Below are positions 3,558-59,026 of a DNA stretch of 64,000 nt, piece after piece; positions within the stretch are counted from its first letter, which is position 1, and each line of letters begins with the position of its first letter. The notes beneath the pieces were generated by a model. It had not been told where the DNA came from. It was given only the letters and a program-made list of their open reading frames with translations, and searched no databases. The stretch comes from Candidatus Woesearchaeota archaeon. GTDB taxonomy: Archaea; Nanobdellota; Nanobdellia; Pacearchaeales; GW2011-AR1. Location of the stretch: NCBI GenBank assembly GCA_964412025.1, contig CAYPLY010000001.1:4797-68796 (forward strand), given 5' to 3'. Position numbers and translations under genes: made by a program.

Positions 3558-3602
3558 TACATATATAATAAGTATTTTTAACAAATAATAGATATATTTA
3601 TA
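3558..3602 (+). promoter_or_regulatory. AT-rich TATA-like promoter region upstream of the giant surface-protein gene
   Basis: TTTATACATATATAATAAG and TATATTTATAAGG motifs lie 25-70 nt upstream of the ATG at 3628. Confidence 0.3.
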
Positions 3603-3627
3603 AGGTATATTACATAAATAATAAGTA

Positions 3628-6600
3628 ATGGGAAGGACTCGATTAGCAAAGGCACTAGTTAGTAGTTTACAAAGAAATAAAGAGGCTTCTCAAAGCAGAA
3701 AAAATGAGCTTGTTGATTATTTAAAAAGATTAAATCAAGCACATGCAAATAAACAGATTTCTGGGGCAAAATATGTAGAGACGCTCACGAAAAAAACCAA
3801 TGGAAGAAACATAAAAGAGTGGGTTGATTATTATGAAAATTATTCTAAGAACTGCGAAAAGGCGATCGAGAGACAAAAGGCAAAGGTAATAAGGAACAGA
3901 GTTTTAGCTTTATTTTTTGGAGTTCTATTTTTAGGAGGGTTTATTTTTGCTGCTCTTTCTTTAGATTATTCTAGTATTGGGTTAACAGGATTTTTTGTGG
4001 GTGAAGGATTTCAGGAACAAGAGTATTCACAGATAATTGGACTGATAACTAATGAATCTACAAATTATGAATTGAACTTAGAAAATCCTGGACAATTAAG
4101 TTCAGTTAAAATTAATGGTGAGATAAAAGGAGAGGGAGAGATTAAAGTTTATCTCAATGATTTGTTAATATTGGATAGTTCAAAGATTAAATCGAAATCA
4201 AGTTCTCCAAAATATAATTCTCCTTTAACCGGAATGATTATTGAAGAAACAGAAACAATAACAACAGATTCTCAGACAACTACTTCAGAAGATTCATATT
4301 CAGAAACAGAGACTCCTTCAAAAGAAGATTCGAGTCCTTCCCAGGAGGAGTCTCTAACTGAAACTACAAATTCTCAAACAATTTCATCAGAAGTATCATA
4401 TTCAGAAGAGAAGATAGAGAGCGAGGTTCCTTTGCAAGAAGAGTCGAGTCCTTCCCAGGAGGAACCTCAAGCTTCTGAAAGTTTAGATAAGACTTTGGAT
4501 GATACGCCTCAAACAGAAAACGAATCGATTTCATATTCAGAAACAGAGACTCCTTCAAAAGAAGAGTCGAGTCCTTCCCAGGAGGAGTCTCTAACTGAAA
4601 CAAATCAATCATACCCCCAGAGAAATCAAACAGAAGATATTGAAACTAATGAGAGAGAAGTTCAAACAAATGTTACTTATGAACAGGAAAGCAATGAAAC
4701 ACAATCCAATATATCATATTCAGAAACAGAGACTCCTCTAAAAGAAGAGTCGAGTCCTTCCCAAGGGGAGTCTCTAACTGAAAATATTTTTAATGAGTTT
4801 TGTGAAGATACATGCAATCTCGAAAAATTGAATTTAACAAATTCTTCTTATACTTTAAGAGTAGAGATAGAAGGAAATGTTACACTAAGGTTGGGGAGTA
4901 TTGATTATTCTATTATTCTGGAAGAAGTTCCTCTTATCTCGGAGAATATTACAGTAAATACTGTCCAGTATGATGCAGTTCTTGGAAAACCAGTAAAATG
5001 GAAAAAGCAAATCGAACTTCCTGAAAAAGGAAATGTTAAGGTTGAACTTCCAAAGGGTTCTGAGAAAATTGTTGTTAGCAAGATTATTGATAGAGAATCA
5101 TATTCAGAAAAAGAAGCTTCTCAAAAAGAAGAGTCGAGTCCTTCCCAAGGGAAGCTTCTTACTGAAAATAGGAAAGTTAAAGAAAAATCAAACTCAATAG
5201 AAGTATTAATTGAAGATAATTCTGACTTATATGAAATTGAATATGAAACTCCTGCACCATACTCTTCTGAAGAAGAAACTGAAAAAGGAAAGAAAGTAAT
5301 AATTGCAGGTTCTGAAGAGGTTCATTATGAAAATGTTTTAGCATTTACAAATTTAAGTGAAAGTTTGGATATAAGAAGTCCTTCTGAACTGAAAATATAC
5401 TGGATTGAAGAAGAAGTTTACCTTCCTGCAGAGAGGGTTGAAGACAAAGATAATAACGGATTTTATGATTATGTTGAATGGATTGTTCCTCATTTATCCA
5501 ATCAGACATTTTTGATAACTATCCAATCAGGGACAGAAGGAAAAGATGCTCATATTGATAGTTCAACTCCAAACAGAAATTTTGGCGCATCTACTTCTAT
5601 GATAATAAGTAACACAGAAAGAATGTTGCTAGAATTTGATTTATCCGATGTAACAGAAACAGCAAATATTGTTAATGCAAATCTTACTTTATATTTATCT
5701 TCTGCAGGAACAGGAACTAATCCCATAAGTGTTTATAGGATAAATAACAGCTGGATTGAGGGTACAGGGGATAGCCAGAATACTTATGATGGAGTAACCT
5801 GGACTAACAGAAGCGGAACAGAAAGTTGGGATATCCCTGGAGGGGATTTTGATTCAAGAGTATGGGCAATTAGAAATTTAACAACAGCAGGAACTTATTA
5901 TACATTGGATATAACTCAGTTAGTACAGAACTGGGTTAATGGAACTTACGAAAATTATGGGATTATACTTTATGGTGAAAACGGACATGGACAATGGCAT
6001 TTCCCTTCAAGTGATAATATTAACGCTACAATCAGACCTCAGTTAAACATAACTTATAATGAATCTCAAGTTCCTGTAATAAATTCAGTGAGTATTCCGT
6101 CAACAATTAGAGAAGGAGAAAACCTAAGTTTAACAGCAAATATTACAGATAATTTGGAAGTTGAGGGAGCAATAATTGAGATAGATAATTTAAATTATTC
6201 ATTAGGACAAAATCCTCAAACAATCTCAAATGTTGCAATAATAAGGCCTGCTGCAAAAGGTACAATTGAAACTAACAGGGTGGTTAATTATCTTAACTCT
6301 TATGATAATAATAATGATACTTCTTCAGGAATAAATGCAGTTAATCCTCTCTTAACAATAAAAACTTCTGGAGTGAGCGTAGCAGGTATAATAAATTCAG
6401 TAAAGGTAAAAGTTATTCATTCTAAATTAAGTTATGACACAATAGGGTATTTACATTGGGCAAGCTCTAATGGAGGAGAAGAGCAAGGTTTAACCCATGA
6501 ATTTAATTCAACAAGTGAAACACCAGAGATAACAGAATTTGATGTTACATCAGAGAGGGACTGGAGTTTTGCAGATTTCAATCTTCTTACAGAAATACAT

Positions 6601-9600
6601 CTTAATAATTCAGATTCAACATTAAAGATATATGAAGTTTGGTTTGAAGTAAATTACACAACTCCTGCAAGCAACGACTTGTGGAACGGAACAATTGATA
6701 CTTCCAGATTATCTGCAGGAAATTACACTTATACTATTTTTGCAAATGATAGCTCAGATAATCTTGCAAATTATCAAAATAATTTTACAATATTACCTCA
6801 ACTTGTCCTGGTGAATGTTTCAATGAATGATGCGCAAGGGAATTTTCAGGAAGCTGAAGTTATAATTTATAATACTGAGAGTCAGGAAGTGGAGATGAAC
6901 TCAACTATGACTGAATCAGAATTAATATCTGTTGAAGAAGGAGAGAAGAATATTTTGATAAATCCTGTTGGAACTCCTGTATTCCAAATTGAATATGAAA
7001 ATACTTTAATTGAAAACTACACTGAAGGAATAATTGATATCGATCAGCCTTCTGAAGTAGAAAATTTTACCAAGGTATATGCATTAAATCCTCATTTAAA
7101 TACAAATGCTACAGTAACTGCATTTGCAACGGGTAATGAATTATACAAATGTAAAGACTGGAACTTTACAAATCAATCTTGTTATGGGGAATGGATTAAA
7201 GTTATGGATATCACTCCAGGAGAAGAATATAACTTCACACTCTCTCCAGAAGATCCTGCTTTTGCTGAAGTTATTGTAATAATATTTGCACATCATCTTA
7301 ACTCAACTAGAGACTTTATTTCGGATATCTACCAAGAGGTTGTTCTATTAGATGATATTTGGAGCGAGGAAATTCCTGATGGAGATTATGTTAGAGTTAC
7401 TTTTGAGAGTAATTTGACAAGTGATAGAGATATAACAATATATCCAAGGATAGTTTCAGGAACACCAAGGATTGAGATTTATGAAGTGAATGAAAGTACA
7501 TTGATTGCCGAATTTAATCCAATTATTAATAATTCTTATAACAAAAGATTCTTGACAAGTCTGATTGGAGAGCAAGATACATTTGATTTGAGAATTATTG
7601 GAGGAAGTGTTGAGTTTGATTATATTGTTGATCCTCCAGATTACTTAAGTTGCGTTTCAGGAACATGTATAGCAGTATTTAATATTACAACTGGTGCAAA
7701 CACATGGCAGGTTCCTACCGAAGTTACTGAAATAATGATTGAAGCTTGGGGAGGAGGCGGAGCAGGTGGAGGTTCTATATCGAATGGTTATGGTGGAGGA
7801 GGCGGAGCAGGTGGCCAGTATGCTAAACGTAATTTAACTGTAACTCCTTCGACTACTTTTAACATTTTTATTGCTTCATCAATAACGGGGGGTACAGGTG
7901 ATGGTTCACAAGGATATAATACAAGTTTCTTCAATTCTACAGGAAATTATGTTGTTGCAATGGGTGGTGAAGGAGGTAAAGGAGGAATTAATAAAGCTGC
8001 AGGGGCTGGAGGCTTAGGTTCTATTTCTGGAGGTGTGGGTACCACAATTTATGGGGGCGGAAATGGATACACTGGGAGTTCATCAGGAGGAGGAGGAGGA
8101 GGAGGTTCTGGAACAACTGGTTGGGGTGGAAATAGTACAAGTGCTACAGGAGGAACAGGAACTTCAATTGGGGGAGGAGATGGAGGTGCAGGTAACACAG
8201 ACGCAAGTGGAGACGCTGGACTTAATTATGGTGGAGCTGGAGGGGGAGGAGAAAGAGCAGGAGGAACTAATGGAGTGGGAGGAACAGGAGCACAAGGGAT
8301 GTTAAAAATAACATATGCAGAACCTGTTGATTTAACTTCTCCTCAGTATAATTCTGTTTCAGTTAATAATACTCTTGCAGGGCAAATAACTAATTTTGCA
8401 ATAAATGTGACTGATAATATCGCATTGCATCCAAATGGGCAATATATTTTCTCAACTAATAATACTGGAGTTTGGATAAATGATAGCTTTTGGCAAAAAG
8501 ATTTAACTATAAATGCAAGTTTGCCAGATATTGGAACTAATTCAAAACCTTCTGTATTTTATAAAGATTCTTCATGGTACCTAATAAGCGGTATTCAATC
8601 AGGGGAGTTTTTTGGTTTTGCTTATAATGGAACTAATTGGTTGCCAAATTCAACAATAAATGCAAGTTTGCCCGATATTGGATCTAATACAAACCCTTAT
8701 GTATTCTATAAAGATTCTTCATGGTATCTAATAAGCGGAGAAGCTGGGGGAAATTTTTATGGCTTTGCTTGGGATGGTACTCAATGGTTGCCAAATTCAA
8801 CAATAAATGCAAGTTTGCCCGGTATTGGAATTAGTTCAGTACCTTCTGTATTTTATAAAGATTCTTCATGGTATCTAATAAGCGGAGAAAGAGATGGAAA
8901 TTTTTATGGCTTTGCTTGGGATGGTACTCAATGGTTACCTAATTCAACAATAAATACAAGCTTGCCTAATCTTGGAGAAACTTCTTTCATATCTCCTTAT
9001 GTATTCTATAAAGATTCTTCATGGTACCTAATAAGCGGAGAAAATACTGGAAATTTTTATGGCTTTGCTTGGGATGGTACTCAATGGTTACCTAATTCAA
9101 TAATAAATGCAAGCTTGTCTAAAACAATTTCTAAATCATCTCCTTCTGTATTTTATAAAGATTCCTCTTGGTATTTAATCTCTGGAGATACAAATGGAAT
9201 ATTTTTTGGTTACAAATATTCTGATGCTACAAATTTCACCTCAACTCCTTCCTGGGCAAATGTTACAAAAACATTGAATTCAACTAGTGGGATGGTTGTA
9301 GGTTATAGGTGGTATTTCAAAGATTCTTATTCAACACCAAATTATAATTCAACACCTGTTTATACTTTGACAACGACTCCTTATTATGGTATCTTAAATG
9401 TTAGCATAATTCTTCCTGAAAATTATTCTGGATACTTCACTGGAAATACTAATTTAACAATAAATGCAAGTGTTACTTGTGTGGGTGGAGCATATTGCGG
9501 AACAGTAAGTGCGACAGCGAGATATAATCTTTCAAGTGCTTCTCCTGATACAAATATTAATATTAGTGAAGGAGGATCTCCTTTTTATAACCTTGGAAGT

Positions 9601-12600
9601 GGCGGAGAGGATATATATGTCTATAATTTTAGTGGGATAACTAATCCTTCTTCAACACATAAAGCTACTAATGGCTCATGTTCTTCATTTGTCTCATTTC
9701 AACCTAATAATCAATATGAGTTTTATAATGAAGGTTATTCTAATCTAGTTTTTATTGATGGATTTGTTACAAAAACTTCCCTTCCATCTGGATTTGGATC
9801 GAATAAACCTTATGAGAAATTTGATTTTAAAATTTTAGAGTCAAAAGATTCCATAAATGAGATAAATCTCTCAATATATGGAAGATCATATTCTAGTTCA
9901 GATTATCAATTTACTGTTTTTGTATATAATTATAGCGGAGGCATCATGGGTGATCCATGGAAGCAAGTATCTTCAATTAATTTAGAGGGTTTTCAATATC
10001 ATAATCTAACCTTTAACAAAACTACCTCCCCAAACATAGATGAGATAATTGGTTCTGATGGAATAATTCAGATTCTTGTAAAAGGTTATTCTGATATTGT
10101 TAGTACTTCTATTGAAGTTGATTTTATTGAAATCAAAGTCAATGGTTCCAGAGGAGCCTCAAATCCACAAACCTCCTCAGTAATTCTTAATGAGGGAGAA
10201 TCTTTCTATCCAAATTGGACAATAAACGTTACATCAACAACCCCCAATCAAGAATACTTGTTGGATGTTTTATTTAATTCAAGCTATGGAAATTCCAATG
10301 TTCTTGATAATAATACAGAAGACAGAAGAATAATATTGAATCCTGGTGCTGGAAGTTCTGAATGTGGTTCTCTAGATATTGAAAATAAATCATGTACCTT
10401 AACAGGAAATATTTCTTCCTTGGAAAATGGTTTTAATATAACAGCTCAAAATATAACTTTAGATTGTGGAGGAAATTACATAATAGGCAGTAATGTTCCA
10501 AATTCAAAAGGTATATTGATAAATAGCTCAAATGTAACAATTACGAATTGTAAGTTTTCTAATTTTCCAATAGATATTTACACTTTAAATGGAAATAATA
10601 TAACTTTGTATAACATAACTGGTGGTAGCGAATATGGTTTGATTGTAAATGGAACAACTAATAGCAATTTCACTAATATTTCTTTTAATAATGTTACAAT
10701 TGCAGGTATTTTAGTTACTAATAATTCACATAATAATACTTTCACAGATATAAACATAAACAGTAGTGCTCATGGAATATATGTTGAAGGGGGTCAGAGT
10801 AATACATTTGATTGTGCTAATGGTTTGATTAATTATTCCCAGGGAGGAGGAGGGTGGTATTTTGGTATTACAAGTAACCAGTTTAATACTACAATAAAGA
10901 ATTGTAATATTTTTAATTCTAATAGAACAACTACGTATTCATATAGCATGGGTATCCAATTAACTGGAAGTTCTAACTCTTCTTTATATAATAATTATGT
11001 TGATTCCGGAAGTTCTGCTGGGATATATGTTACAAACTCTCATTTTAATCTTTTGGTTAATAATTTTGGATCTTCTGTTAATAATCAGGGGTTAAGACTT
11101 GAATCCTCTTATAATAATCTTTTAATCAACAATACGGGGAGTAGTTCTTCAAATGGAGGTATTGGTATTACTGGAAGCACTTCTCATTCAAATACTTTAA
11201 TTAATTGTACAGCTAGAGGAGGCAATACAGGAGGAATGTATTTTACAACCTCTTCTCATGATAATGAGATAATTAATTTAAATGCTTCAGGTTCAAGGGC
11301 TGTACGTATTACAGGTTCTTCTAATAATACTATAAGAGATTGTTTATCTATTTCTGGAACGTCTGCTGATGTATATATATCAAATGATGCGGGAGGAATT
11401 AATAGTTCGTTTGTTAATTGTTCATATGACCTCAGTAAAGAAATATTTGAAGATGCTGTTAATGAGTTGACAAGGAAATGGTATTATATGGCATATGTTA
11501 ACGATAGTTCTGGAAATCCAGTTGAGAACGCAAACATAACTGCTTATAACTCAACAGGAGATTTACAATTTACGGCATTAACAAATTCAACAGGACATAT
11601 TTCAAGACAGGAAGTTATAGAATATTTTAATGATGCAGGAACAAGAAGTTATTATAACAATTATACAATAAACGCAAATAAATCTGGTTATATTAATGAT
11701 AGTAATGAGTTTAATTTTACAATAACGCAGAATAAGGTTGACGATTGGTTTACTTTAACGGAGGAAGCAGCAGGTCCTGCAGATTGTAATACAATTGGTA
11801 ACTCTGGGATTTTAGATACGGATAATGGGGTTTATACTTTAACAGAGAATATCTCATCACAGGGAACATGTTTGACTGTTGCTGCAGCAAATGTAACAAT
11901 TGATTGTAATGGATATTGGATAACTTTTTCAACTGATGGAGCAACAGGCACCAGAGGTATTTACTCCAATCAATTTAATACAACTATAAAAGATTGTAAT
12001 ATAATTGATGGGAACTGGACAACTCCAGATAGTTGGAGAGCAGGAGTTTTCTTTACTATTGGGGCAGATTATGGATTAATACAGAATGTTTCTACTAATG
12101 TCAGTAATTGTCACGGTATTGATATTAATGGGGGTTCTGGTATAAGAGTATATAATTCTACAGGAAGGACAAAAGATTATCATGGAATAATAATATGGAC
12201 TGATGCTTCTAATATTACTCTATTAAACTCTACAGGAATATCGAATACAAGTGTAGGTATTGGAATATATGGTAACAATAATTCTATTTATAATTCTACA
12301 GGGCAGTCTACATATAATAGTTATGGTATCTATTTACCTTCAGTTTCTAATAATCTAATCTCTGGGTGTAATGCTAGTTCTGATTCAAATCATGGAATAT
12401 TTGCCCAGAACAGTACAAATAATACTTTAATTAATAATAATATAACAAGTAATTCTGGGGGCGGGATTGTTATTTATTCTTATTCAACAAATAATACTCT
12501 CATAAATAATAATGTATCAACAAATTCTGGAAGTGCAATTTACATTCTGGCGCTTTCCAATAACAATACTTTACTTAGAAACAATGCTACAACTAATTCA

Positions 12601-15600
12601 GCGAGTGGTCAGGCAATTTATATTTACAATTCTTCATATATGAATTTAACTGAAAACAAAGCAACAAGTACTTCCTCAAGCGGTATTTACATAGAAGAAT
12701 CTTCAGATAATAACACTTTAACATCAAATAACGGAACTAGTTATGCTGCTGATAATTTTGGAATTGTATTGGGAACTTCCAGCAACAACATCCTTACAAA
12801 CAATACTGGTATGAATGTAAATAATGGAATTGGAATCTATATTGCAGTTTCTTCAAATAACAATACTTTGATTAATAATACGGCAATTTCAAATACAGGA
12901 CAGGGGGTTTATATTTATTCTAATTACAATAACACTCTTATTAATCAAAAAGCATACGGTGGTCTGGGGGTCTTTATAATAAATGCAAATTCTACAACTT
13001 TCAGAGATTGTGTTGAGATATCCGGGACAACTTTTGATGTAAATTTATTTTCAACTCCTTTAAGCAAGAACAACACTTTCATAAACTGTTCTTATGATAC
13101 GGAAACTGTTGGAGGGACAGATAACGAGCTAATAAGAAAATGGTATTATCAAGCATATGTTAATGATACTTCAGGAAGTTCAGTTTCAGATGCAAATGTA
13201 ACTTCATACAATGCAACAGGAGTTCTTCAATCTACAGCTCAAACTAATTCTTCTGGTTGGATTTCAAGACAGGAAGTTACAGAATATGTAAATACAGGAG
13301 GAACAAGAAGTTTCTATAATAATTATTCCATATTTGCGAATAAATCAGGATATATTAATGATAGTAATGAGTTTAATTTTACAATAACGCAGAATAAGGT
13401 TAATGACTGGTTTACTTTGGAGGGAGGAGGTCCAGCAGACTGTACAACAATTGGTAACTCAGGAATATTAGATACTGATAATGCATTTTATACCTTGACA
13501 GAGAATATCTCATCGCAGGGAACATGTCTTGATGTTGTAGCTGATAATGTTACAATTGATTGTAATGGATATTGGATAAATTATTCAATAAATGGACAAA
13601 GCGGGGATCATGGTATCTACACTAATCAGTTTAATACTACTATAAGGAACTGTAATATTGTTGATGGGAATTGGACAACTTCAAATACAGGAAGGTCTGG
13701 AATATATTTTAGTGGAGTTATAAACGGAACTATACAAAACAATTCTATTAATATAAGCAACACTCTAGGTATTCTTTTAAATTATAAGTCTTCAAATAAT
13801 ATCTTAATCAACAATAATGTTTACAGTTTTTCTGGAACTGCAATAAGCATTTACAATTCTACTAATAATTTATTGGAAAATAATACCGGGATAAGTAATT
13901 CAAGCTACGGAATCTCTTTACAATATTATGATGAGGGCAATATCTTAATAAATAATACTGGGATAAGTAATACAAGTAATGGAATTTATGTTTATTACTC
14001 GCATACAAATAATCTAACTAATAATAATGCAACAAGCACTTCTAATCATGGGATGCTTCTTGATCATTCAGACAATAATACCTTAACTAATAATAATGGA
14101 ACCAGTTTAGAAGATAGCAATGGAATTTATATATATCCTTATTCAGAGAATAATACCTTAATAGGTAATATTGGAACTTCTTTAGAAGGAGGAGTTGGAA
14201 TATCTCTTTGGTCTTCAGCAAATAATACTTTAATAAATAATACTGGTTTAAGTAATAGTAGCCGTGGAATCTTGCTTGCGTATTCAAATAATGTTACTCT
14301 AACAAATAATACTGGAAGAAGTAATTTTGCCCGTGGAATAGATATTCAATCCTCAAATGAGAGTGCTTTAATAGATAACGAAGGAATAAGTTTAGCAGGA
14401 AGTTACGGAATTATTGTTTATACGTCAAAGGACAATACTTTAATAGATAATATAGGAACAAGTAATACAAGCAACGGAATCTCTATACAATATTCTTCAA
14501 ATATCAATTTAATAAATAATACGGGTATAAACAACTATCAAAGCCAAGGATTCCTTATATATTACTCTAATAATAATACTCTTATAAATAATACTGGAAG
14601 AAATCTTGATTATGGTAATAGAGGACTTTATATTAGTAATTGTTTAAATAACACTGTAATAAATCAAATAGGAACAGGAACCAGAGGTATTGCAATATCT
14701 GGTTCAAATCATACTTTGATTCGAGATTGTATTAATGTTACTGGAAGAACCAACGATGTTTATATTAGTGATGCAAGTACTAATGTAACTTTCATAAATT
14801 GTTCTTATAATTACACTCCGGAATATGTTGGGGCTGGTAGCGAACTAATCAGAAAATGGTATTATCAAGCTTATGTAAATGACAGTTCTGGGGCTGCAGT
14901 TGAAGACGCGAATGTAACTGCATATAATATAACAGCGCAAATTCAATTCACAGAACAGACTAATGGAAGCGGGTGGATCGGAAGGCAGGAAGTTATTGAG
15001 TATATTAATACAGCTGGAACAAGGAGTTATTACAATAATTACACTATAAATGCAACAAATACCACTTTTACAGAAGATCACATATTCAACTTTACAATAA
15101 CACAGAATAAGGTTGACGACGTGTTTACATTGGACGATTCAGGTACAGCAGATTGTAATACAATTGGAAACTCCGGAAAATTGGATGTCGAGGGGCAAAC
15201 ATATACTTTAACAGAAAATATTTCCTCTCAGGGAACATGTTTAACCGTCTCTGCTGAAAATGTTACAATCGATTGTAATGGGTATTGGATAAATCATTCT
15301 ATAAATGGAACAGATGCAATGTATGGGATATATTCAAACCAATTTAATACAACAATAAAGAATTGTAATATTATTGATGGGAATTGGTCAATAGGTACTC
15401 AAAGCAGAAGAGGGATTTATTTGGTTTCGAGTCATAATTCTACTCTATTTAGAAATTTCATAAACGAAAGTAATTCTCAGGGGGTTTATACTAGCGGTTC
15501 GAATTATATGAATATTACCAACAATACGATTTCTTCTTCTTCTAGCCAGGCAATAAGGTTGTCTTCTTCTCATTATAATATTTTGGTTGGAAATAATATT

Positions 15601-17565
15601 AGGGCTTACTCCTTATATGGTACTGCTTTAACAAGCGGTTCAAGTAATAACACATTTATTAATCACACCTCTAAAAGTAATACTGATTCTATACGCTTTG
15701 AATCAAGCGCCAATGGTAATTTATTCATAAATACAAACTCTTCGGGTAAATATGCATTTCATTTTGAAGATAGTAGTTACAATAACATCACAGATTGTAT
15801 TTATGCGAGCGGGACTCTCGAGGATGTGTATGCCGAGTTTGAGACAATAGGTTCTGCTGGAAATATTTTCTTAAATTGTTCTTATGACACTGAAAATACT
15901 ACAGGCGAGGTAAATCAGATTATAAGAAAATGGTACTATCAAGCTTATGTAAATGATACCTCGGGAAGTGCGGTTGAAAGTGCAAATATCACGGCTTATA
16001 ACACAACCGGAGATTTGCAGTTTACAGCTTTAACAAATTCAACAGGGCATATTTCAAGACAGGAAGTTATTGAATATGTGAATGCTTCTGGGACGGTAAG
16101 TTACTACAATAATTACACAATTTTTGCAAATAAGACAGGTTATGTTGGAGATATAAATGTCTTCAACTTTACAATAACTCAGAATAAGGTTGATGACTGG
16201 TTTACATTAGATGAAAATACTCCTCCACAGATAATCTCGGTTTATAATTCAACTGAAATGACAGATATTTCATCTGGACCTAATGAAGGACCTGTTGTAA
16301 CGTATGTTTTATTGAACTTTACAGCATATGATGAACAGGGATTTGATAATTTGGATGATAGCTCGGTACAGGTAAATTTCTCACTAGCGGGTGAAAGTTC
16401 AAGGGTTAATTCAAGCTGTGCATTGTTGGGAGACTATGATACAAACTATGCAAATTATACTTGTAATGTAACAATGTGGTGGTGGGATGCTCCTGGAACA
16501 TGGTCTATAAATGCTTCTATAGAAGATGTTGATGGAAACTCTGGATTTAATGATTCAACAACTTTTGCAGTTGGTTCAACAACTGGTTTTTTAGCTAATT
16601 CTACAAATGTTAACTGGCCAGATATTCCTCCGGGTGCAACTAATATAGAGGCATTATCTCCTATGTTGTTAAACAATACGGGAAATGAAGAAATAAATGT
16701 TGAAGTTAATGCAACTAATCTTACTGGAGAAAGCTATTCAAATTATGCTTTGGGAGCAAGTAACTTTAGTGTTCATACTTCTCCTGGTTGCGGAGGAACT
16801 CAAATGTTCTGGTATCAGTACACAACTGTTGTTGGAGCTGTAATTCCTAAGGGAAATTATAGTTTAAATGATGGAACTGCTCAGGAAACAATTTATTTCT
16901 GTTTAGAAGAATCAAATGCCAATTTAATCTCGCAGGCATATTCAACAACACAACAGGGTAGTTGGACAATAAGAATATTCCTTGTTGCAGTTACATTTGG
17001 AAGGAGAAGAAAGAAGAAAGGAAAAACAGGGACAATTGAAAAAGATAAACTTCTGAAAGCAATAAATCTTGTTTCAGAAGAGATGAAGGAAGAATATTCT
17101 CCTGAAAAAGAACAGGTAATTAATATCTTGGTTAAGGAAGTCAAGAAAAAATACAGAGTGAACAACAAGGAAATATCTGAATTTATAATCTCAAAGAAGG
17201 AAATAGAAGTATCTATAGATGTATTCAGTAAAAATCTTGGAGCATTAGAAGCTCTTGTCAAATATATGAAAGAAAACTTGAATATGAATTATGTTGAAAT
17301 CGCGAGAAGACTTGGAAGGGATGAAAGGACAATATGGACAGCTTATAAGAAAGCAAGTGATAAACATAAAGAACCTCTTAAGATAAAAGAGAGTGGATTT
17401 ACCATTCCAATTGAGAGATTAGGAAATGAGAAACTAACAGTGTTAGAAGCTATTATAATATATTTAAAAGAAAAAGGAAAGAAATATTCTGAAATTGGTA
17501 AATTGTTAAATAGAGATCAGAGAAATATCTGGACAATATATTCGAAAGCGATTAACAAGAGATAA
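3628..17565 (+). CDS. giant (4645 aa) cell-surface beta-helix repeat protein
   Basis: A single uninterrupted ORF. It opens with a cytoplasmic segment of about 95 aa followed by one TM helix (LALFFGVLFLGGFIFAALSL). It contains at least six copies of an acidic S/T/E-rich repeat (core SYSETETP[SL]KEESSPSQ[EG]ESLTE), a Gly-rich tract, five tandem units of about 62 aa (VFYKDSSWYLISGE..GNFYGFAWDGTQWLPNSTINASLP), and four mega-repeats of about 570 aa made of PbH1-like NNTLINNTG beta-helix turns plus RKWYYQAYVND..ISRQEV modules. N-x-S/T sequons are extremely dense. A C-terminal domain is paralogous to ORF 17616-18539. It ends with a hydrophobic/RRRKKK segment and a tandem HTH tail. Confidence 0.85.
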   Translation: MGRTRLAKALVSSLQRNKEASQSRKNELVDYLKRLNQAHANKQISGAKYVETLTKKTNGRNIKEWVDYYENYSKNCEKAIERQKAKVIRNRVLALFFGVLFLGGFIFAALSLDYSSIGLTGFFVGEGFQEQEYSQIIGLITNESTNYELNLENPGQLSSVKINGEIKGEGEIKVYLNDLLILDSSKIKSKSSSPKYNSPLTGMIIEETETITTDSQTTTSEDSYSETETPSKEDSSPSQEESLTETTNSQTISSEVSYSEEKIESEVPLQEESSPSQEEPQASESLDKTLDDTPQTENESISYSETETPSKEESSPSQEESLTETNQSYPQRNQTEDIETNEREVQTNVTYEQESNETQSNISYSETETPLKEESSPSQGESLTENIFNEFCEDTCNLEKLNLTNSSYTLRVEIEGNVTLRLGSIDYSIILEEVPLISENITVNTVQYDAVLGKPVKWKKQIELPEKGNVKVELPKGSEKIVVSKIIDRESYSEKEASQKEESSPSQGKLLTENRKVKEKSNSIEVLIEDNSDLYEIEYETPAPYSSEEETEKGKKVIIAGSEEVHYENVLAFTNLSESLDIRSPSELKIYWIEEEVYLPAERVEDKDNNGFYDYVEWIVPHLSNQTFLITIQSGTEGKDAHIDSSTPNRNFGASTSMIISNTERMLLEFDLSDVTETANIVNANLTLYLSSAGTGTNPISVYRINNSWIEGTGDSQNTYDGVTWTNRSGTESWDIPGGDFDSRVWAIRNLTTAGTYYTLDITQLVQNWVNGTYENYGIILYGENGHGQWHFPSSDNINATIRPQLNITYNESQVPVINSVSIPSTIREGENLSLTANITDNLEVEGAIIEIDNLNYSLGQNPQTISNVAIIRPAAKGTIETNRVVNYLNSYDNNNDTSSGINAVNPLLTIKTSGVSVAGIINSVKVKVIHSKLSYDTIGYLHWASSNGGEEQGLTHEFNSTSETPEITEFDVTSERDWSFADFNLLTEIHLNNSDSTLKIYEVWFEVNYTTPASNDLWNGTIDTSRLSAGNYTYTIFANDSSDNLANYQNNFTILPQLVLVNVSMNDAQGNFQEAEVIIYNTESQEVEMNSTMTESELISVEEGEKNILINPVGTPVFQIEYENTLIENYTEGIIDIDQPSEVENFTKVYALNPHLNTNATVTAFATGNELYKCKDWNFTNQSCYGEWIKVMDITPGEEYNFTLSPEDPAFAEVIVIIFAHHLNSTRDFISDIYQEVVLLDDIWSEEIPDGDYVRVTFESNLTSDRDITIYPRIVSGTPRIEIYEVNESTLIAEFNPIINNSYNKRFLTSLIGEQDTFDLRIIGGSVEFDYIVDPPDYLSCVSGTCIAVFNITTGANTWQVPTEVTEIMIEAWGGGGAGGGSISNGYGGGGGAGGQYAKRNLTVTPSTTFNIFIASSITGGTGDGSQGYNTSFFNSTGNYVVAMGGEGGKGGINKAAGAGGLGSISGGVGTTIYGGGNGYTGSSSGGGGGGGSGTTGWGGNSTSATGGTGTSIGGGDGGAGNTDASGDAGLNYGGAGGGGERAGGTNGVGGTGAQGMLKITYAEPVDLTSPQYNSVSVNNTLAGQITNFAINVTDNIALHPNGQYIFSTNNTGVWINDSFWQKDLTINASLPDIGTNSKPSVFYKDSSWYLISGIQSGEFFGFAYNGTNWLPNSTINASLPDIGSNTNPYVFYKDSSWYLISGEAGGNFYGFAWDGTQWLPNSTINASLPGIGISSVPSVFYKDSSWYLISGERDGNFYGFAWDGTQWLPNSTINTSLPNLGETSFISPYVFYKDSSWYLISGENTGNFYGFAWDGTQWLPNSIINASLSKTISKSSPSVFYKDSSWYLISGDTNGIFFGYKYSDATNFTSTPSWANVTKTLNSTSGMVVGYRWYFKDSYSTPNYNSTPVYTLTTTPYYGILNVSIILPENYSGYFTGNTNLTINASVTCVGGAYCGTVSATARYNLSSASPDTNINISEGGSPFYNLGSGGEDIYVYNFSGITNPSSTHKATNGSCSSFVSFQPNNQYEFYNEGYSNLVFIDGFVTKTSLPSGFGSNKPYEKFDFKILESKDSINEINLSIYGRSYSSSDYQFTVFVYNYSGGIMGDPWKQVSSINLEGFQYHNLTFNKTTSPNIDEIIGSDGIIQILVKGYSDIVSTSIEVDFIEIKVNGSRGASNPQTSSVILNEGESFYPNWTINVTSTTPNQEYLLDVLFNSSYGNSNVLDNNTEDRRIILNPGAGSSECGSLDIENKSCTLTGNISSLENGFNITAQNITLDCGGNYIIGSNVPNSKGILINSSNVTITNCKFSNFPIDIYTLNGNNITLYNITGGSEYGLIVNGTTNSNFTNISFNNVTIAGILVTNNSHNNTFTDININSSAHGIYVEGGQSNTFDCANGLINYSQGGGGWYFGITSNQFNTTIKNCNIFNSNRTTTYSYSMGIQLTGSSNSSLYNNYVDSGSSAGIYVTNSHFNLLVNNFGSSVNNQGLRLESSYNNLLINNTGSSSSNGGIGITGSTSHSNTLINCTARGGNTGGMYFTTSSHDNEIINLNASGSRAVRITGSSNNTIRDCLSISGTSADVYISNDAGGINSSFVNCSYDLSKEIFEDAVNELTRKWYYMAYVNDSSGNPVENANITAYNSTGDLQFTALTNSTGHISRQEVIEYFNDAGTRSYYNNYTINANKSGYINDSNEFNFTITQNKVDDWFTLTEEAAGPADCNTIGNSGILDTDNGVYTLTENISSQGTCLTVAAANVTIDCNGYWITFSTDGATGTRGIYSNQFNTTIKDCNIIDGNWTTPDSWRAGVFFTIGADYGLIQNVSTNVSNCHGIDINGGSGIRVYNSTGRTKDYHGIIIWTDASNITLLNSTGISNTSVGIGIYGNNNSIYNSTGQSTYNSYGIYLPSVSNNLISGCNASSDSNHGIFAQNSTNNTLINNNITSNSGGGIVIYSYSTNNTLINNNVSTNSGSAIYILALSNNNTLLRNNATTNSASGQAIYIYNSSYMNLTENKATSTSSSGIYIEESSDNNTLTSNNGTSYAADNFGIVLGTSSNNILTNNTGMNVNNGIGIYIAVSSNNNTLINNTAISNTGQGVYIYSNYNNTLINQKAYGGLGVFIINANSTTFRDCVEISGTTFDVNLFSTPLSKNNTFINCSYDTETVGGTDNELIRKWYYQAYVNDTSGSSVSDANVTSYNATGVLQSTAQTNSSGWISRQEVTEYVNTGGTRSFYNNYSIFANKSGYINDSNEFNFTITQNKVNDWFTLEGGGPADCTTIGNSGILDTDNAFYTLTENISSQGTCLDVVADNVTIDCNGYWINYSINGQSGDHGIYTNQFNTTIRNCNIVDGNWTTSNTGRSGIYFSGVINGTIQNNSINISNTLGILLNYKSSNNILINNNVYSFSGTAISIYNSTNNLLENNTGISNSSYGISLQYYDEGNILINNTGISNTSNGIYVYYSHTNNLTNNNATSTSNHGMLLDHSDNNTLTNNNGTSLEDSNGIYIYPYSENNTLIGNIGTSLEGGVGISLWSSANNTLINNTGLSNSSRGILLAYSNNVTLTNNTGRSNFARGIDIQSSNESALIDNEGISLAGSYGIIVYTSKDNTLIDNIGTSNTSNGISIQYSSNINLINNTGINNYQSQGFLIYYSNNNTLINNTGRNLDYGNRGLYISNCLNNTVINQIGTGTRGIAISGSNHTLIRDCINVTGRTNDVYISDASTNVTFINCSYNYTPEYVGAGSELIRKWYYQAYVNDSSGAAVEDANVTAYNITAQIQFTEQTNGSGWIGRQEVIEYINTAGTRSYYNNYTINATNTTFTEDHIFNFTITQNKVDDVFTLDDSGTADCNTIGNSGKLDVEGQTYTLTENISSQGTCLTVSAENVTIDCNGYWINHSINGTDAMYGIYSNQFNTTIKNCNIIDGNWSIGTQSRRGIYLVSSHNSTLFRNFINESNSQGVYTSGSNYMNITNNTISSSSSQAIRLSSSHYNILVGNNIRAYSLYGTALTSGSSNNTFINHTSKSNTDSIRFESSANGNLFINTNSSGKYAFHFEDSSYNNITDCIYASGTLEDVYAEFETIGSAGNIFLNCSYDTENTTGEVNQIIRKWYYQAYVNDTSGSAVESANITAYNTTGDLQFTALTNSTGHISRQEVIEYVNASGTVSYYNNYTIFANKTGYVGDINVFNFTITQNKVDDWFTLDENTPPQIISVYNSTEMTDISSGPNEGPVVTYVLLNFTAYDEQGFDNLDDSSVQVNFSLAGESSRVNSSCALLGDYDTNYANYTCNVTMWWWDAPGTWSINASIEDVDGNSGFNDSTTFAVGSTTGFLANSTNVNWPDIPPGATNIEALSPMLLNNTGNEEINVEVNATNLTGESYSNYALGASNFSVHTSPGCGGTQMFWYQYTTVVGAVIPKGNYSLNDGTAQETIYFCLEESNANLISQAYSTTQQGSWTIRIFLVAVTFGRRRKKKGKTGTIEKDKLLKAINLVSEEMKEEYSPEKEQVINILVKEVKKKYRVNNKEISEFIISKKEIEVSIDVFSKNLGALEALVKYMKENLNMNYVEIARRLGRDERTIWTAYKKASDKHKEPLKIKESGFTIPIERLGNEKLTVLEAIIIYLKEKGKKYSEIGKLLNRDQRNIWTIYSKAINKR

Positions 17566-20909: not shown

Positions 20910-20999
20910 TGCCCCGGACAGGATTTGAACCTGCGACCCCTAACTTTCTTCTCTATTTATTAGAAGGCTAGTGCTCTATCCAGGCTGAGCTACCAGGGC
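20910..20999 (-). tRNA. tRNA-Arg (TCT) with an intron of about 15 nt in the anticodon loop
   Basis: Acceptor GCCCTGG/CCGGGGC; D-arm GCTC-AGCCTGGATA-GAGC; anticodon stem CTAGC...GTTAG. The 22 nt between the stem halves are CTTCTA[ATAAATAGAGAAGAA]A. T-arm GCAGG-TTCAAAT-CCTGT. The intron position is assumed to be the canonical 37/38 site. Confidence 0.55.
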
Positions 21000-59025: not shown

Positions 59026-59026
59026 A

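What the first reader, a model, noticed from the sequence alone, without database searches (positions are those of the whole stretch)
3628..17565. 4645-aa N-glycosylation-sequon-saturated beta-helix protein with four nested repeat systems
Several repeat systems are visible directly in the translation. There are at least six copies of the acidic repeat SYSETETP[SL]KEESSPSQ[EG]ESLTE. A Gly-rich block of about 180 aa follows. Then come five tandem VFYKDSSWYLISGE..GNFYGFAWDGTQWLPNSTINASLP units of about 62 aa. Four mega-repeats of about 570 aa follow, each combining a carboxypeptidase-regulatory-like RKWYYQAYVNDxSG...ISRQEVxEY module, an ADC(N/T)TIGNSGILDTDN...NVTIDCNGYWI module and about 20 PbH1-type beta-helix coils (NNTLINNTGxSNxxxGIYxY). 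N-x-S/T sequons occur every few residues. The N-terminus is a cytoplasmic 95-aa segment plus one TM helix, which gives type II anchoring. This is the dominant coding investment of the window at 14 kb. It is the kind of protein DPANN-like cells are thought to use for host contact.
Basis: seen in the sequence. Interest (0 to 1): 0.6.

Follow-up and report, generated by a model that had tools for sequence, protein, structure and literature searches.

The report
Giant archaeal surface protein, DNA-binding tail
A real 4,645-residue sugar-coated surface protein of a tiny DPANN archaeon belongs to a large unnamed family: both ends lie inside the cell, the inner tail looks like a DNA-binding domain, and the family's promoters carry a conserved repeated DNA motif, so the protein may regulate its own gene.

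Summary
The ORF 3628-17565 (+) is real: 4,645 aa with no stop. The repeats are diverged, so this is not an assembly artefact, and two related genomes carry intact syntenic versions of 4,280 and 5,686 aa.

- The acidic repeat has 5 copies, not at least 6.
- The tandem unit is 49 aa, not 62.
- The four beta-helix + CarboxypepD_reg units measure about 380, 554, 572 and 358 aa.
- Sequons occur at 5.4 per 100 aa, twice expectation.

It holds an Ig-like pair, a 9-13-residue hydrophobic stretch, RRRKKK, and a sequon-free tail with two sigma70-region-4/LuxR-type HTH units.

This tail, and the N-terminal cytoplasmic domain plus TM helix, define a family of more than 2,000 clusters in Pacearchaeota, Woesearchaeota and Nanoarchaeota. 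The middle of the protein is hypervariable.

The promoter carries two perfect copies of ACATAWATAATAAGTA flanking the TATA box. These are the only matches in 64 kb. The same pair precedes family genes, HTH-only versions included, in 100 of 106 cases elsewhere.

Best reading: a doubly anchored glycan-binding surface protein whose cytoplasmic HTH tail autoregulates its promoter. DNA binding is inferred, not shown.

The parts
3559..3574 (+). Distal copy of the 16-nt promoter motif ACATATATAATAAGTA (candidate operator)
   Evidence: Perfect match. It is one of only two matches (up to 2 mismatches, both strands) in the 64-kb window. The same motif sits in the same position upstream of family genes in other species.
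3597..3604 (+). TATA box TTTATAAG, about 27 nt (centre) upstream of the ATG, which implies a leaderless mRNA
   Evidence: Sequence read. The TATA box starts 15 nt before the proximal motif in most family promoters. The leaderless start is inferred from the usual archaeal TATA-to-TSS distance.
3612..3627 (+). Proximal copy of the motif, ACATAAATAATAAGTA, abutting the start codon (about -16 to -1)
   Evidence: Perfect match. The motif ends 0 or 1 nt from the ATG in 79 of 97 family promoters. Pair spacing is 51-53 nt in 89 of 107 pairs.
3628..3900 (+). N-terminal cytoplasmic domain (aa 1-91), helical and basic, conserved across the family
   Evidence: Charged-residue (KRED) fraction 0.34, net charge +13, 1 sequon. 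Homologous N-termini are found in 44 of 67 tail-bearing proteins longer than 1000 aa.
3901..3963 (+). TM helix 1 (aa 92-112), signal anchor
   Evidence: The only 19-aa window with Kyte-Doolittle hydropathy above 1.6. The family median uncharged stretch here is 21 aa.
4293..5168 (+). Acidic Ser/Thr/Glu-rich insert with 5 interspersed copies of a 72-nt (24-aa) repeat, SYSETETPSKEESSPSQEESLTE
   Evidence: Copies start at 4293, 4407, 4530, 4713 and 5097, at 64-99% identity. The SSPSQ core occurs 5 times. The flanking beta-domain is conserved in relatives.
5614..6051 (+). DNRLRE / Disaggregatase-repeat domain (aa 663-808), carbohydrate-binding-like
   Evidence: Pfam PF06848 at 49.3 bits (cut-off 33.9). 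NCBIfam NF033679 at 75.7 bits (cut-off 34). CBM96 is flagged on the L002 ortholog.
7687..8316 (+). Glycine-rich domain (aa 1354-1563)
   Evidence: Pfam PF21722 Gly_rich_2 at 38.2 bits (cut-off 24.3). There are 60 Gly in aa 1401-1600.
8488..9225 (+). Array of five 49-aa (147-nt) repeats (aa 1621-1866) inserted in a loop of an Ig-like domain, and absent from the closest relative
   Evidence: TRF gives period 147, 4.2 copies, 84% matches. Motif spacing is 49/49/51/49 aa. There is a clean indel relative to P0135/L004. The same 5-6-unit module occurs in 10 other secreted proteins.
10333..16215 (+). Four [parallel beta-helix (PbH1/NosD) + CarboxypepD_reg-like beta-sandwich] units (aa 2236-4196). Unit boundaries are at nt 11764, 13420 and 15136.
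   Evidence: Pfam Beta_helix, NosD and CarboxypepD_reg. Module identities are 29-46% for the beta-helices and 67-82% for the CPD-reg modules. This is the most divergent and rearranged part relative to L004. Homologs are named NosD or parallel beta-helix proteins across archaea.
16216..16962 (+). Membrane-proximal pair of Ig/FnIII-like beta-sandwich domains with conserved Cys (aa about 4197-4445)
   Evidence: AF2 model with pLDDT 89 shows two beta-sandwiches. The best Foldseek hit is the RbmA tandem FnIII (E=7.5e-4), followed by integrin leg domains. The domain is conserved in more than 120 proteins. It lies in the same ORF as the tail in 70 of 80 genome loci.
16963..17025 (+). Short hydrophobic segment WTIRIFLVAVTFG (aa 4446-4458) plus polybasic RRRKKKGK (aa 4459-4466), the inferred second membrane crossing
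   Evidence: The pattern G.WTI[RK] + 8-13 hydrophobic residues + polybasic cluster is conserved in 100 members, with a median of 10 hydrophobic residues. Composition switches here: charged-residue (KRED) fraction goes from 0.14 to 0.38, and sequons from 5.4 per 100 aa to 0.
17026..17199 (+). Helical cytoplasmic linker (aa 4467-4524)
   Evidence: AF2 predicts helices with pLDDT 55-70. Conserved in alignment A1.
17200..17562 (+). Two sigma70-region-4/LuxR-type helix-turn-helix units (aa 4525-4580 and 4581-4645)
   Evidence: AF2 pLDDT above 90. Foldseek gives local superpositions on RcsB, SigR, SigD and SigF region 4 at rmsd 0.7-0.9 A over 42-49 residues. Pfam Sigma70_r4_2 scores 20.6 bits, below the 25.7 cut-off. 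A profile search finds 2218 cluster representatives, mostly at the C-terminus of 1000-5919-aa proteins.
17616..18539 (+). Downstream paralog: signal peptide plus the same Ig-like pair (52% identity), ending at the last strand with no anchor and no tail
   Evidence: BLASTP E=7e-83. The same gene pair is present in 51 of 64 eligible genome loci. Sequons 4.2 per 100 aa.
18541..19071 (+). 176-aa protein with a signal peptide and a C-terminal TM anchor, third gene of the conserved cluster
   Evidence: Translation. Homologs lie on the same strand in 59 of 80 genome loci. Syntenic in L002 and L004.
19109..20815 (+). 568-aa sequon-rich surface protein with a signal peptide and a C-terminal TM anchor, fourth gene of the cluster
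   Evidence: Translation. Sequons 2.6 per 100 aa, z=4.3. Homologs are present in 57 of 80 loci, including next to HTH-only genes.

Best explanation
The ORF encodes a giant, heavily N-glycosylated cell-surface protein of a Pacearchaeota/Woesearchaeota-type DPANN archaeon. It belongs to a large, so far unnamed family with conserved ends and a variable middle.

Shown:
- The order of parts is: N-terminal cytoplasmic domain, TM helix, about 4,330 aa of extracellular modules, a membrane-proximal Ig-like pair, a short hydrophobic stretch with a polybasic cluster, and a tail of two sigma70-region-4/LuxR-type HTH units.
- The extracellular modules are an acidic stalk, a DNRLRE/CBM96-like domain, a Gly-rich domain, an inserted 5 x 49-aa array, and four beta-helix + CarboxypepD_reg units.
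- The middle differs sharply between close relatives.
- The promoter carries two phased copies of a 16-nt motif flanking the TATA box. That motif pair is specific to genes encoding this HTH domain.

Inferred:
- The chain crosses the membrane twice, so both ends are cytoplasmic and the ectodomain forms a giant glycan-binding loop used for cell-cell or envelope contact.
- The tandem HTH binds the promoter repeats, one unit per half-site (ACATA ... TAAGTA).
- The finished protein therefore feeds back on transcription of its own four-gene surface cluster.
- Feedback is most likely repression, because the proximal site covers -16 to -1 of a leaderless promoter.
- Whether the tail acts while tethered or after proteolytic release cannot be decided here.
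For: ORF and domains:
-.
- Sequon enrichment is confined to the ectodomain and the neighbouring surface genes. The two ends have cytoplasm-like composition.

Tail:
- Conserved alignment A1.
- AF2 pLDDT above 90 for the HTH pair.
- HTH fold matches, and a weak hit to an archaeal transcription regulator, 8hnp.
- 2218 cluster representatives, with the tail at the C-terminus of 1000-5919-aa proteins.
- At least 347 loci in species-representative genomes. The tail is fused in frame to the Ig pair in 70 of 80 loci.
- Free HTH-only proteins without a TM helix exist (L070, L076, L077, L080, L082, L084), which shows the domain is an autonomous cytoplasmic unit.

N-terminal domain:
- It co-occurs with the tail.

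Variation between relatives (window against L004):
- 98% DNA identity up to nt 8486.
- The 49-aa array is absent from L004.
- The mega-repeat region is 79% identical or rearranged.
- Identity is 91% downstream.

Promoter motif:
- Its only two matches in 64 kb are perfect and flank the TATA box.
- An independent metagenome scan with the paired motif returned 87 stretches.
- Over all held sequence, 100 of 106 motif-led ORFs are family genes. Of the 53 complete ORFs, 44 end in the tail, 10 of them HTH-only.
- Spacing is 51-53 nt, about 5 helical turns. Arrays of up to 10 copies have non-conserved spacers.
- The recognition helices (RDERTIWTAYKK and RDQRNIWTIYSR) and the motif are both near-invariant across 40 complete genes.
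- A divergent HTH subfamily has a motif with the same half-sites but a shorter spacer.

Conserved cluster:
- The four-gene cluster is conserved.
Against: - No DNA-binding test was possible. The HTH-motif link rests on co-occurrence.
- HTH-only genes could have inherited the promoter through internal deletion of a giant gene, so they are not fully independent evidence.
- The C-terminal hydrophobic stretch is only 9-13 residues (family median 10). TM anchors of neighbouring genes and the N-terminal TM helix are about 21 residues. This is short for a helical membrane span. AF2 confidence there is low.
- Pfam's Sigma70_r4_2 match is below threshold, and the Foldseek E-values are not significant because the domains are small.
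- The covariation evidence is n=2.
- Repression versus activation, and the leaderless start site, are inferred from spacing only.
- The function of the ectodomain (binding versus enzymatic, host versus own envelope) is untested. The beta-helix and DNRLRE regions have no sequence relatives in the PDB.
Confidence: 0.55

Rival explanations
1. This is a plain type II-anchored giant adhesin. Only the N-terminal TM helix anchors it. The C-terminal hydrophobic/basic segment does not cross the membrane, and the HTH-like tail is extracellular or functionally irrelevant.
For: The C-terminal hydrophobic stretch is too short (9-13 aa) for a standard TM helix. AF2 confidence for it is low.
Against: - The tail has cytoplasm-like composition (charged-residue (KRED) fraction 0.38, 0 sequons) against 0.14 and 5.4 sequons per 100 aa in the ectodomain.
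- A polybasic cluster follows the hydrophobic stretch in 100 of 100 members examined.
- The same tail exists as free proteins with no signal peptide and no TM helix.
- The tail is conserved in more than 2000 clusters.
Confidence: 0.08
2. The protein has the topology described, but the promoter repeats are bound by some other factor or are a structural promoter element. The HTH tail would then be a non-specific nucleoid- or protein-docking module, for example one that tethers the envelope complex to DNA or to a partner, with no gene-specific regulation.
For: - No binding data exist.
- Near-invariant recognition helices fit a conserved protein partner as well as a conserved DNA site.
- The motif co-occurs with the N-terminal domain too in most cases.
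Against: - HTH-only genes, which lack every other family part, still carry the phased motif pair or arrays of it.
- The motif is absent from the rest of the 64-kb window and almost absent from 860 kb of other loci outside these promoters.
- A subfamily with changed HTH helices has a changed motif.
Confidence: 0.22
3. The gene and its three downstream partners encode the cell's main envelope or S-layer-like coat rather than a host-contact adhesin. The variable middle would then reflect pressure from viruses or grazers.
For: - The four-gene cluster is conserved across the clade and sits between housekeeping genes in three syntenic genomes.
- Conserved anchors with a hypervariable exposed region are typical of major surface antigens.
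- The neighbours are sequon-rich, tail-anchored surface proteins.
Against: - Beta-helix (CASH), DNRLRE and CBM96-type modules suggest glycan recognition rather than lattice formation.
- A protein of 4,645 aa anchored at both ends is unlike known S-layer proteins.
- This rival concerns only the ectodomain's role. It is compatible with the regulatory tail.
Confidence: 0.25
4. The long ORF or its repeats are an assembly artefact or a pseudogene.
For: The window comes from a metagenome-type assembly. One related contig (L001) has the homologous gene broken into several ORFs.
Against: - A 13.9-kb stop-free frame in DNA of 31% GC.
- Repeat copies are 63-90% identical at DNA level, with only a 72-nt pair at 99%.
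- Independent assemblies carry intact 4,280- and 5,686-aa orthologs in the same synteny.
- Both ends are conserved family-wide.
Confidence: 0.02

Closest known systems
Pectin-lyase-fold, heavily N-glycosylated surface proteins of cultivated DPANN (Nanobdella aerobiophila MJ1_0451, MJ1_0701 and MJ1_0776; bioRxiv 10.1101/2023.10.27.564410)
   Same: DPANN cell-surface proteins that combine a parallel beta-helix with Ig-like folds and dozens of N-x-S/T sequons, proposed to act on host envelope glycans.
   Different: Those proteins are 908-1320 aa, and no cytoplasmic DNA-binding tail is reported for them. This one is 4,645 aa, has four beta-helix units, is anchored at both ends, and carries a tandem HTH.
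Giant 'SPEARE' surface proteins of Nanohaloarchaeota (PMC10266531; Hamm et al. 2019 as cited there)
   Same: Giant DPANN ectodomain followed by a membrane span and a functional cytoplasmic domain. Size and content differ between strains.
   Different: The cytoplasmic domain there is a VirB4/TraG-like ATPase, and the ectodomain is made of Ig-like and WD40-like domains. No ATPase is present here. Here the cytoplasmic part is a tandem HTH, and a matching promoter motif exists.
Membrane-tethered transcription regulators (bacterial ToxR/CadC type; anti-sigma/ECF-sigma pairs released by regulated proteolysis; eukaryotic Notch, SREBP and ATF6). From general knowledge.
   Same: A DNA-binding domain on the cytoplasmic side is joined through one membrane span to an extracytoplasmic part that meets the environment. 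Autoregulation is common.
   Different: - ToxR and CadC carry an N-terminal OmpR-type winged helix, whereas here the HTH is C-terminal and of the sigma-r4/LuxR type.
- The extracellular part here is a 4,300-aa adhesin-like loop anchored at both ends.
- The host is an archaeon with TBP/TFB transcription.
- Release by proteolysis is not shown.
Sigma-70 family / ECF sigma factors, and the 'sigma-70' family fam00359 reported in Woesearchaeota (PMC8204110)
   Same: The HTH units resemble sigma region 4 in sequence (sub-threshold) and in fold. JGI names fragments of this family 'sigma24 family protein'. Castelle et al. noted sigma-70-classified proteins without anti-sigma factors in these lineages.
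   Different: There are no sigma regions 2 or 3, there are two region-4-like units in tandem, and the units are usually fused to a surface protein. Whether fam00359 is this family could not be checked.
NosD / CASH-domain parallel beta-helix proteins of archaea (Pfam PF05048 and PF13229)
   Same: The four beta-helix units score strongly and have homologs named NosD or parallel beta-helix repeat proteins in many archaeal phyla.
   Different: NosD itself is a small periplasmic maturation factor. The NCBIfam NosD_copper_fam model scores 20 bits against a cut-off of 300. Only the fold module is shared.

Membership tests
Right-handed parallel beta-helix repeat proteins (Pfam PF13229 Beta_helix, PF05048 NosD; PbH1 repeats) | Profile match above the curated threshold, with multiple PbH1 coils | tested here: met
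   PF13229 scores 235.9 bits (cut-off 25.9) over 12 stretches. PF05048 scores 153.8 bits over 11 stretches. TIGR03804 para_beta_helix scores 64.1 bits (cut-off 19.45).
NosD copper-maturation protein (NCBIfam TIGR04247) | Full-length match to the NosD subfamily model | tested here: not met
   20.2 bits against a cut-off of 300. Only the beta-helix fold is shared.
CarboxypepD_reg-like domain (PF13620) | Profile match above threshold | tested here: met
   38.2 bits (cut-off 32.3), best stretch aa 2624-2657. There are four copies at 67-82% mutual identity.
DNRLRE / Disaggregatase-related repeat (NF033679, PF06848) | Profile match above threshold | tested here: met
   NF033679 scores 75.7 bits (cut-off 34). 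PF06848 scores 49.3 bits (cut-off 33.9).
Sigma-70 family sigma factor | Region 4 match above threshold | tested here: not met
   PF08281 scores 20.6 bits against a cut-off of 25.7. TIGR02937 scores 17 bits against 42.9.
Sigma-70 family sigma factor | Presence of region 2 (core binding, -10 recognition) | tested here: not met
   No Sigma70_r2 or r3 hit in the whole protein at E<=0.1. The tail consists of a helical linker and two region-4-like units only.
LuxR/GerE-type or sigma-r4-type tri-helical HTH fold | Structural superposition of the HTH core on solved members | tested here: inconclusive
Membrane-tethered transcription regulator (functional class) | DNA-binding domain and extracytoplasmic domain separated by a membrane span | tested here: inconclusive
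   A composition and sequon switch together with a polybasic cluster argue for a crossing. The hydrophobic stretch is only 9-13 aa, and topology was not measured.
Membrane-tethered transcription regulator (functional class) | Sequence-specific binding to a defined operator | not testable with these tools
   A candidate operator was identified by co-occurrence: 100 of 106 motif-led ORFs are family genes. No binding assay or protein-DNA modelling was available.
Archaeosortase/PGF-CTERM-type C-terminal sorting signal | Signature motif + TM helix + basic cluster at the extreme C-terminus | tested here: not met
   There is no PGF-type motif, no NCBIfam sorting-domain hit, and the basic cluster is followed by about 180 further conserved residues.
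SPEARE-type giant proteins of Nanohaloarchaeota | C-terminal cytoplasmic VirB4/TraG-like ATPase domain | tested here: not met
   No ATPase family was hit in the whole protein.
The unnamed DPANN family described here (conserved N-terminal cytoplasmic domain + TM ... Ig pair + short hydrophobic/polybasic + tandem HTH) | All four conserved end modules present in one ORF, and the motif pair in the promoter | tested here: met
   The tail HMM gives E=2.4e-91 and the N-terminal HMM gives E=5.7e-43 on the ORF. The Ig pair is shown. The motif pair is shown.

The most novel reading that the evidence does not exclude
DPANN archaea of the Pace-/Woese-/Nanoarchaeota clade may run a Notch-like or ToxR-like contact-to-gene pathway.

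- Giant variable surface adhesins would end in a cytoplasmic tandem HTH that binds phased 16-nt iteron-like repeats at the promoters of all family members.
- Completion, engagement or intramembrane cleavage of one adhesin would then control expression of its own surface cluster and of paralogous ones. A rhomboid protease gene lies at 55094-55954.
- This could enforce the choice of one surface variant.
- It would also reinterpret the 'sigma-70 factors without anti-sigma factors' reported from these genomes as this HTH module.
Probability: 0.2. Interest if true: 0.85.

Novelty: new variant of a known kind. Interest (0 to 1): 0.7.

Why it matters
DPANN archaea have tiny genomes, yet they spend 14 kb on this one gene. 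How they sense and control contact with other cells is unknown.

If the tail binds the promoter repeats, this family would be the first described archaeal case of a surface protein that is itself a membrane-tethered transcription regulator. The family has more than 2,000 sequence clusters and at least 347 loci in species-representative genomes.

The system offers three things to work with:
- a defined operator for direct testing;
- a hypervariable ectodomain that can be compared between strains;
- a conserved four-gene surface cluster.

It would also correct database names: fragments of these proteins are now labelled sigma-24 or CsgD-family regulators. And it gives a ready marker (motif pair plus HTH) for finding the major surface loci in uncultured DPANN genomes.

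Tried and rejected
- The whole-protein homology search timed out. The exact-sequence look-up found no record.
- PDB sequence searches with one beta-helix unit and with the DNRLRE region found nothing.
- The supplement of PMC8204110 holds no text for fam00359 or fam00969, so the link to the reported 'sigma-70' family stays a lead.
- Literature searches for a DPANN surface protein with an HTH tail found nothing.
- An alternative start that would give a classical signal peptide was rejected: V86 is GTA, and no ATG, GTG or TTG lies near the TM helix.
- A sortase/archaeosortase-type sorting signal was rejected, because about 180 conserved residues follow the basic cluster.
- A CRISPR-like reading of the motif arrays was rejected. 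The repeat is only 16 nt, some spacers are tandem duplicates, and the arrays always sit just upstream of family genes.
- The idea that the tail is more conserved than the ectodomain between close relatives was not borne out. The Ig pair is 90% identical and the tail 70-80%.
- Bulk covariation between recognition helix and motif could not be done. Both are near-invariant, and only two divergent examples have both ends in hand.
- The bacterial promoter/terminator scanner was not used, because the organism is an archaeon.


Full report
**1. The observation**

The ORF at 3628..17565 (+) is real. It is 4,645 codons long, starts with ATG and has no internal stop.

- The start is credible. The codon at V86 just before the hydrophobic helix is GTA, so no shorter version with a classical signal peptide exists. 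A TATA box (TTTATAAG, 3597-3604) lies 31 nt upstream of the ATG.
- The organism is an archaeon with about 31% GC. TFB and TFE genes are present, together with tRNA genes, one of them carrying an intron.
- Its relatives are MAGs labelled Pacearchaeota, Woesearchaeota, Nanoarchaeota or Nanobdellota, that is, DPANN.

**2. Repeat systems**

All four repeat systems exist, but several numbers need correcting.

- The acidic repeat has five copies of a 72-nt unit, starting at 4293, 4407, 4530, 4713 and 5097. They are 64-99% identical and interspersed, not tandem.
- The Gly-rich block is Pfam Gly_rich_2 (aa 1354-1563).
- The VFYKDSSWYLISG repeat has a 49-aa (147-nt) period and five copies.
- The RKWYY.../CarboxypepD_reg module occurs at aa 2616, 3170, 3742 and 4100.
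- Together with the beta-helices this gives four [beta-helix + CPD-reg] units of about 380, 554, 572 and 358 aa. The CPD-reg copies are 67-82% identical and the beta-helices 29-46%.
- At DNA level the large repeats are 63-82% identical. Collapse or expansion during assembly is therefore not a concern.

Sequons number 236, against 116 +/- 8.5 in composition-preserving shuffles. All but one lie in the ectodomain, at 5.4 per 100 aa. Other proteins in the window have 0-1.4 per 100 aa, except the two downstream surface genes.

**3.

After the last CPD-reg module the order is as follows.

- A roughly 250-aa domain that AF2 models with pLDDT 89 as two Ig/FnIII-like sandwiches.
- The segment WTIRIFLVAVTFG followed by RRRKKKGK.
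- About 180 residues without sequons, with a charged-residue (KRED) fraction of 0.38 against 0.14 in the ectodomain.

This tail contains a helical linker and two helix-turn-helix units, KYMKENLNMNYVEIARRLGRDERTIWTAYKKA and LTVLEAIIIYLKEKGKKYSEIGKLLNRDQRNIWTIYSKA.

- AF2 gives pLDDT above 90 for both units.
- Foldseek superposes them locally on sigma region 4 and on RcsB/LuxR-type HTH domains, at rmsd 0.7-0.9 A over 42-49 residues. The E-values are not significant for such small domains.
- Pfam Sigma70_r4_2 scores below threshold, and no sigma regions 2 or 3 are present. This is not a sigma factor.

**4. A large family with conserved ends**

- The C-terminal 451 aa find more than 120 proteins.
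- A profile of the tail finds 2,218 cluster representatives, 903 of them at E<=1e-30. Nearly all have the tail at the extreme C-terminus of proteins of 1,000-5,919 aa.
- A scan of species-representative genomes confirmed at least 347 loci. The best 80 are almost all Pace-, Woese- or Nanoarchaeota MAGs.
- In 70 of these 80 loci the tail is in frame with the Ig-like pair.
- The N-terminal 91-aa basic helical domain plus TM helix is conserved as well (MGRT...ISYxxY...GRxxxEWxxYYDxY). It is detected in 44 of 67 tail-bearing proteins longer than 1,000 aa, and most of the rest are truncated.
- Pfam and NCBIfam have no model for the N-terminal domain, the Ig pair or the tail.

**5. The short hydrophobic segment**

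In 100 family members the hydrophobic run between the conserved R/K of WTI[RK] and the polybasic cluster is 8-13 residues, with a median of 10. The N-terminal TM helix is about 21 residues, and the C-terminal anchors of the neighbouring genes are 21-23.

The Ig pair is sequon-rich, while the tail also exists as free proteins without any signal peptide or TM helix (L070, L076, L077, L080, L082, L084). The chain must therefore cross the membrane here. How so short a segment does that is unexplained.

**6. Variation between relatives**

Two syntenic genomes carry the same locus: tRNA synthetase, giant gene, 306/307-aa gene, 176/177-aa gene, 565-573-aa gene, RNase Z, LSM, S8e, TFB, and a giant SLT protein. 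Their giant genes are 4,280 aa (L004, GCA_029560575.1) and 5,686 aa (L002, GCA_054083115.1).

Identity of the window to L004 changes along the locus:

| Window positions | Comparison with L004 |
|---|---|
| up to 8486 | 98.3% DNA identity |
| 8487-9231 (five-repeat array) | absent from L004, a clean indel inside an Ig-like domain |
| 9232-10926 | 92.9% |
| 11461-13816 | 79.5% |
| 13817-16208 | only paralogous matches |
| from 16209 | 91.2% |

The beta-helix region is thus a hot spot of change between close relatives.

The 49-aa module is rare, with 10 homologs. Elsewhere it occurs as a self-contained 5-6-unit domain of secreted proteins.

**7. A conserved gene cluster**

- The next gene (17616-18539) encodes a signal peptide plus a 52%-identical copy of the Ig pair. 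It stops exactly at the last strand, without anchor or tail. This gene pair is present in 51 of 64 eligible genome loci.
- The following two genes encode tail-anchored surface proteins of 176 and 568 aa. They are conserved in 59 and 57 of the 80 loci, including next to HTH-only genes.

**8. The promoter motif**

When I aligned the upstream regions of family genes from different species, a 16-nt motif stood out.

In the window:
- ACATATATAATAAGTA lies at 3559-3574 and ACATAAATAATAAGTA at 3612-3627. They flank the TATA box, and the second copy abuts the ATG.
- These are the only matches in all 64 kb on both strands, even allowing two mismatches. About 0.002 perfect matches are expected from base composition (my estimate).

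In other sequence:
- In 860 kb of other loci, 63 matches were found, nearly all on the gene strand just upstream of family genes.
- As an independent test I scanned the metagenome collection with the paired motif and obtained 87 stretches.
- Over all held sequence, 106 ORFs are led by a motif pair.
- Of the 53 complete ORFs, 34 have the N-terminal domain and the tail, 10 are HTH-only proteins, 6 have the N-terminal domain with a premature stop, and 3 are unrelated.
- Of the 53 ORFs that run off their contig, 50 start with the family N-terminal domain.

Geometry:
- Pair spacing is 51-53 nt in 89 of 107 pairs, about five helical turns.
- The proximal copy ends 0 or 1 nt from the ATG in 79 of 97 cases.
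- The TATA box most often starts 15 nt before the proximal copy. That puts its centre about 27 nt before the ATG, which implies a leaderless transcript with the proximal motif at -16 to -1.
- Some loci have arrays of 5-10 copies at 52-53-nt spacing with non-conserved spacers.

**9. Linking motif and tail**

- The only protein part shared by the giant genes and the HTH-only genes is the tandem HTH.
- Both the recognition helices and the motif are nearly invariant across 40 complete genes from different species. That fits a fixed protein-DNA pair.
- Two members of a divergent subfamily have different HTH1 helices (RDQRTVALNYKN and RNQRTLWINYRN). Their motif keeps the half-sites ACATA and TAAGTA but has a spacer of 1-3 nt instead of 5. 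This is suggestive but anecdotal.
- L070 shows a natural split version: the surface protein stops at the end of the Ig pair, and the HTH protein starts at the next base, without a hydrophobic segment.

**10. Interpretation**

Shown: the architecture, the family, the variation, the cluster, and the promoter motif with its specificity.

Inferred: both ends are cytoplasmic; the ectodomain is a glycan-binding loop; the tail binds the motif and so regulates its own cluster.

- The glycan-binding reading rests on the beta-helix/CASH, DNRLRE and CBM96-like modules.
- Repression is the more likely sign because the proximal site lies between the TATA box and the start site. The upstream copy or copies could serve cooperative binding or activation.
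- Whether the tail works while tethered or after cleavage is open. A rhomboid protease gene lies in the window at 55094-55954, but it is not linked to the locus.

**11. Relation to known things**

- Beta-helix-containing glycosylated surface proteins are known in cultivated DPANN.
- Giant DPANN proteins with a cytoplasmic functional domain are known in Nanohaloarchaeota, where that domain is an ATPase.
- Castelle et al. reported sigma-70-classified proteins without anti-sigma factors in Woesearchaeota. Fragments of the present family are named 'sigma24' or 'CsgD family' in JGI annotation. The two observations may be the same thing, but I could not check this.
- I found no paper describing the tail, the family architecture or the promoter repeats. 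The searchable library is incomplete, so this is not proof of novelty.

**12. Verdict**

The finding as written is a new member of a known kind, with some miscounts. The family architecture and the operator-like repeats uncovered here make it a new variant of known kinds (membrane-tethered regulators, giant DPANN surface proteins), and it is directly testable.

Noticed in passing
window 24259-31686 (-): A second giant ORF (2,475 aa) with an SLT lytic-transglycosylase domain. The L002 ortholog also has VanY. It matches the Pace-/Woesearchaeota-specific family of large murein-transglycosylase proteins noted by Castelle et al. 2021 (PMC8204110). Unlike the surface cluster, it is strongly depleted in N-x-S/T sequons: 4 against 20.7 expected, z=-4.2.
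   Followed up: partly
window 55094-55954 (+): A rhomboid intramembrane protease gene directly downstream of a TFE-alpha gene and upstream of a SpoIIM-like membrane protein gene. It is a candidate, though unlinked, for cleaving the short C-terminal membrane segment.
   Followed up: no
window 57934-60067 (+): A DisA-type diadenylate cyclase gene (DAC + DisA-linker) overlaps by 23 nt a DHH/DHHA1 phosphoesterase gene. This looks like a c-di-AMP synthesis and degradation pair in a reduced DPANN genome.
   Followed up: no
window 20910-20999 (-): A 90-nt tRNA found by Rfam but not by ARAGORN, next to tRNA-Cys. It probably carries an intron. A tRNA-splicing endonuclease gene lies at 47065-47589.
   Followed up: no
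L103 2042-2514; L153 and L163; L159; L121, L122 and L147: Arrays of 5-10 copies of the 16-nt promoter motif at 52-53-nt spacing, upstream of family genes or HTH-only genes. The spacers are mostly non-conserved, and some arose by 106-nt tandem duplication.
   Followed up: partly
L070 119-6274: A natural split version. An 1,874-aa surface protein ends with a stop right after the Ig-like pair, and a 176-aa HTH-only protein starts at the next base. The hydrophobic segment is missing.
   Followed up: partly
L069 and L072 promoters and tails: A divergent HTH subfamily (HTH1 ...NY[KR]N, HTH2 KD.RN...) has a shortened motif (ACATATTAAGTA or ACACAAATTAAGTA) with the same outer half-sites. This may be covariation, n=2.
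   Followed up: partly
L015, L016, L023, L068, L075: Contigs carrying this archaeal family sit in MAGs labelled Patescibacteria, Bacillota, Paceibacterota or 'bacterium'. This is probably mis-binning.
   Followed up: no
L001 1-12109: In one ENA contig the homologous giant gene is broken into six consecutive ORFs (1976+, 869, 1100, 189, 314 and 702 aa). This reflects either frameshift errors or a decaying copy. Its tail has four HTH units instead of two.
   Followed up: no
window 16963-17001 and family-wide: The inferred second membrane span has only 8-13 hydrophobic residues in 100 family members, preceded by a conserved R/K. Ordinary anchors in the same genomes are about 21 residues. No explanation was found.
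   Followed up: partly
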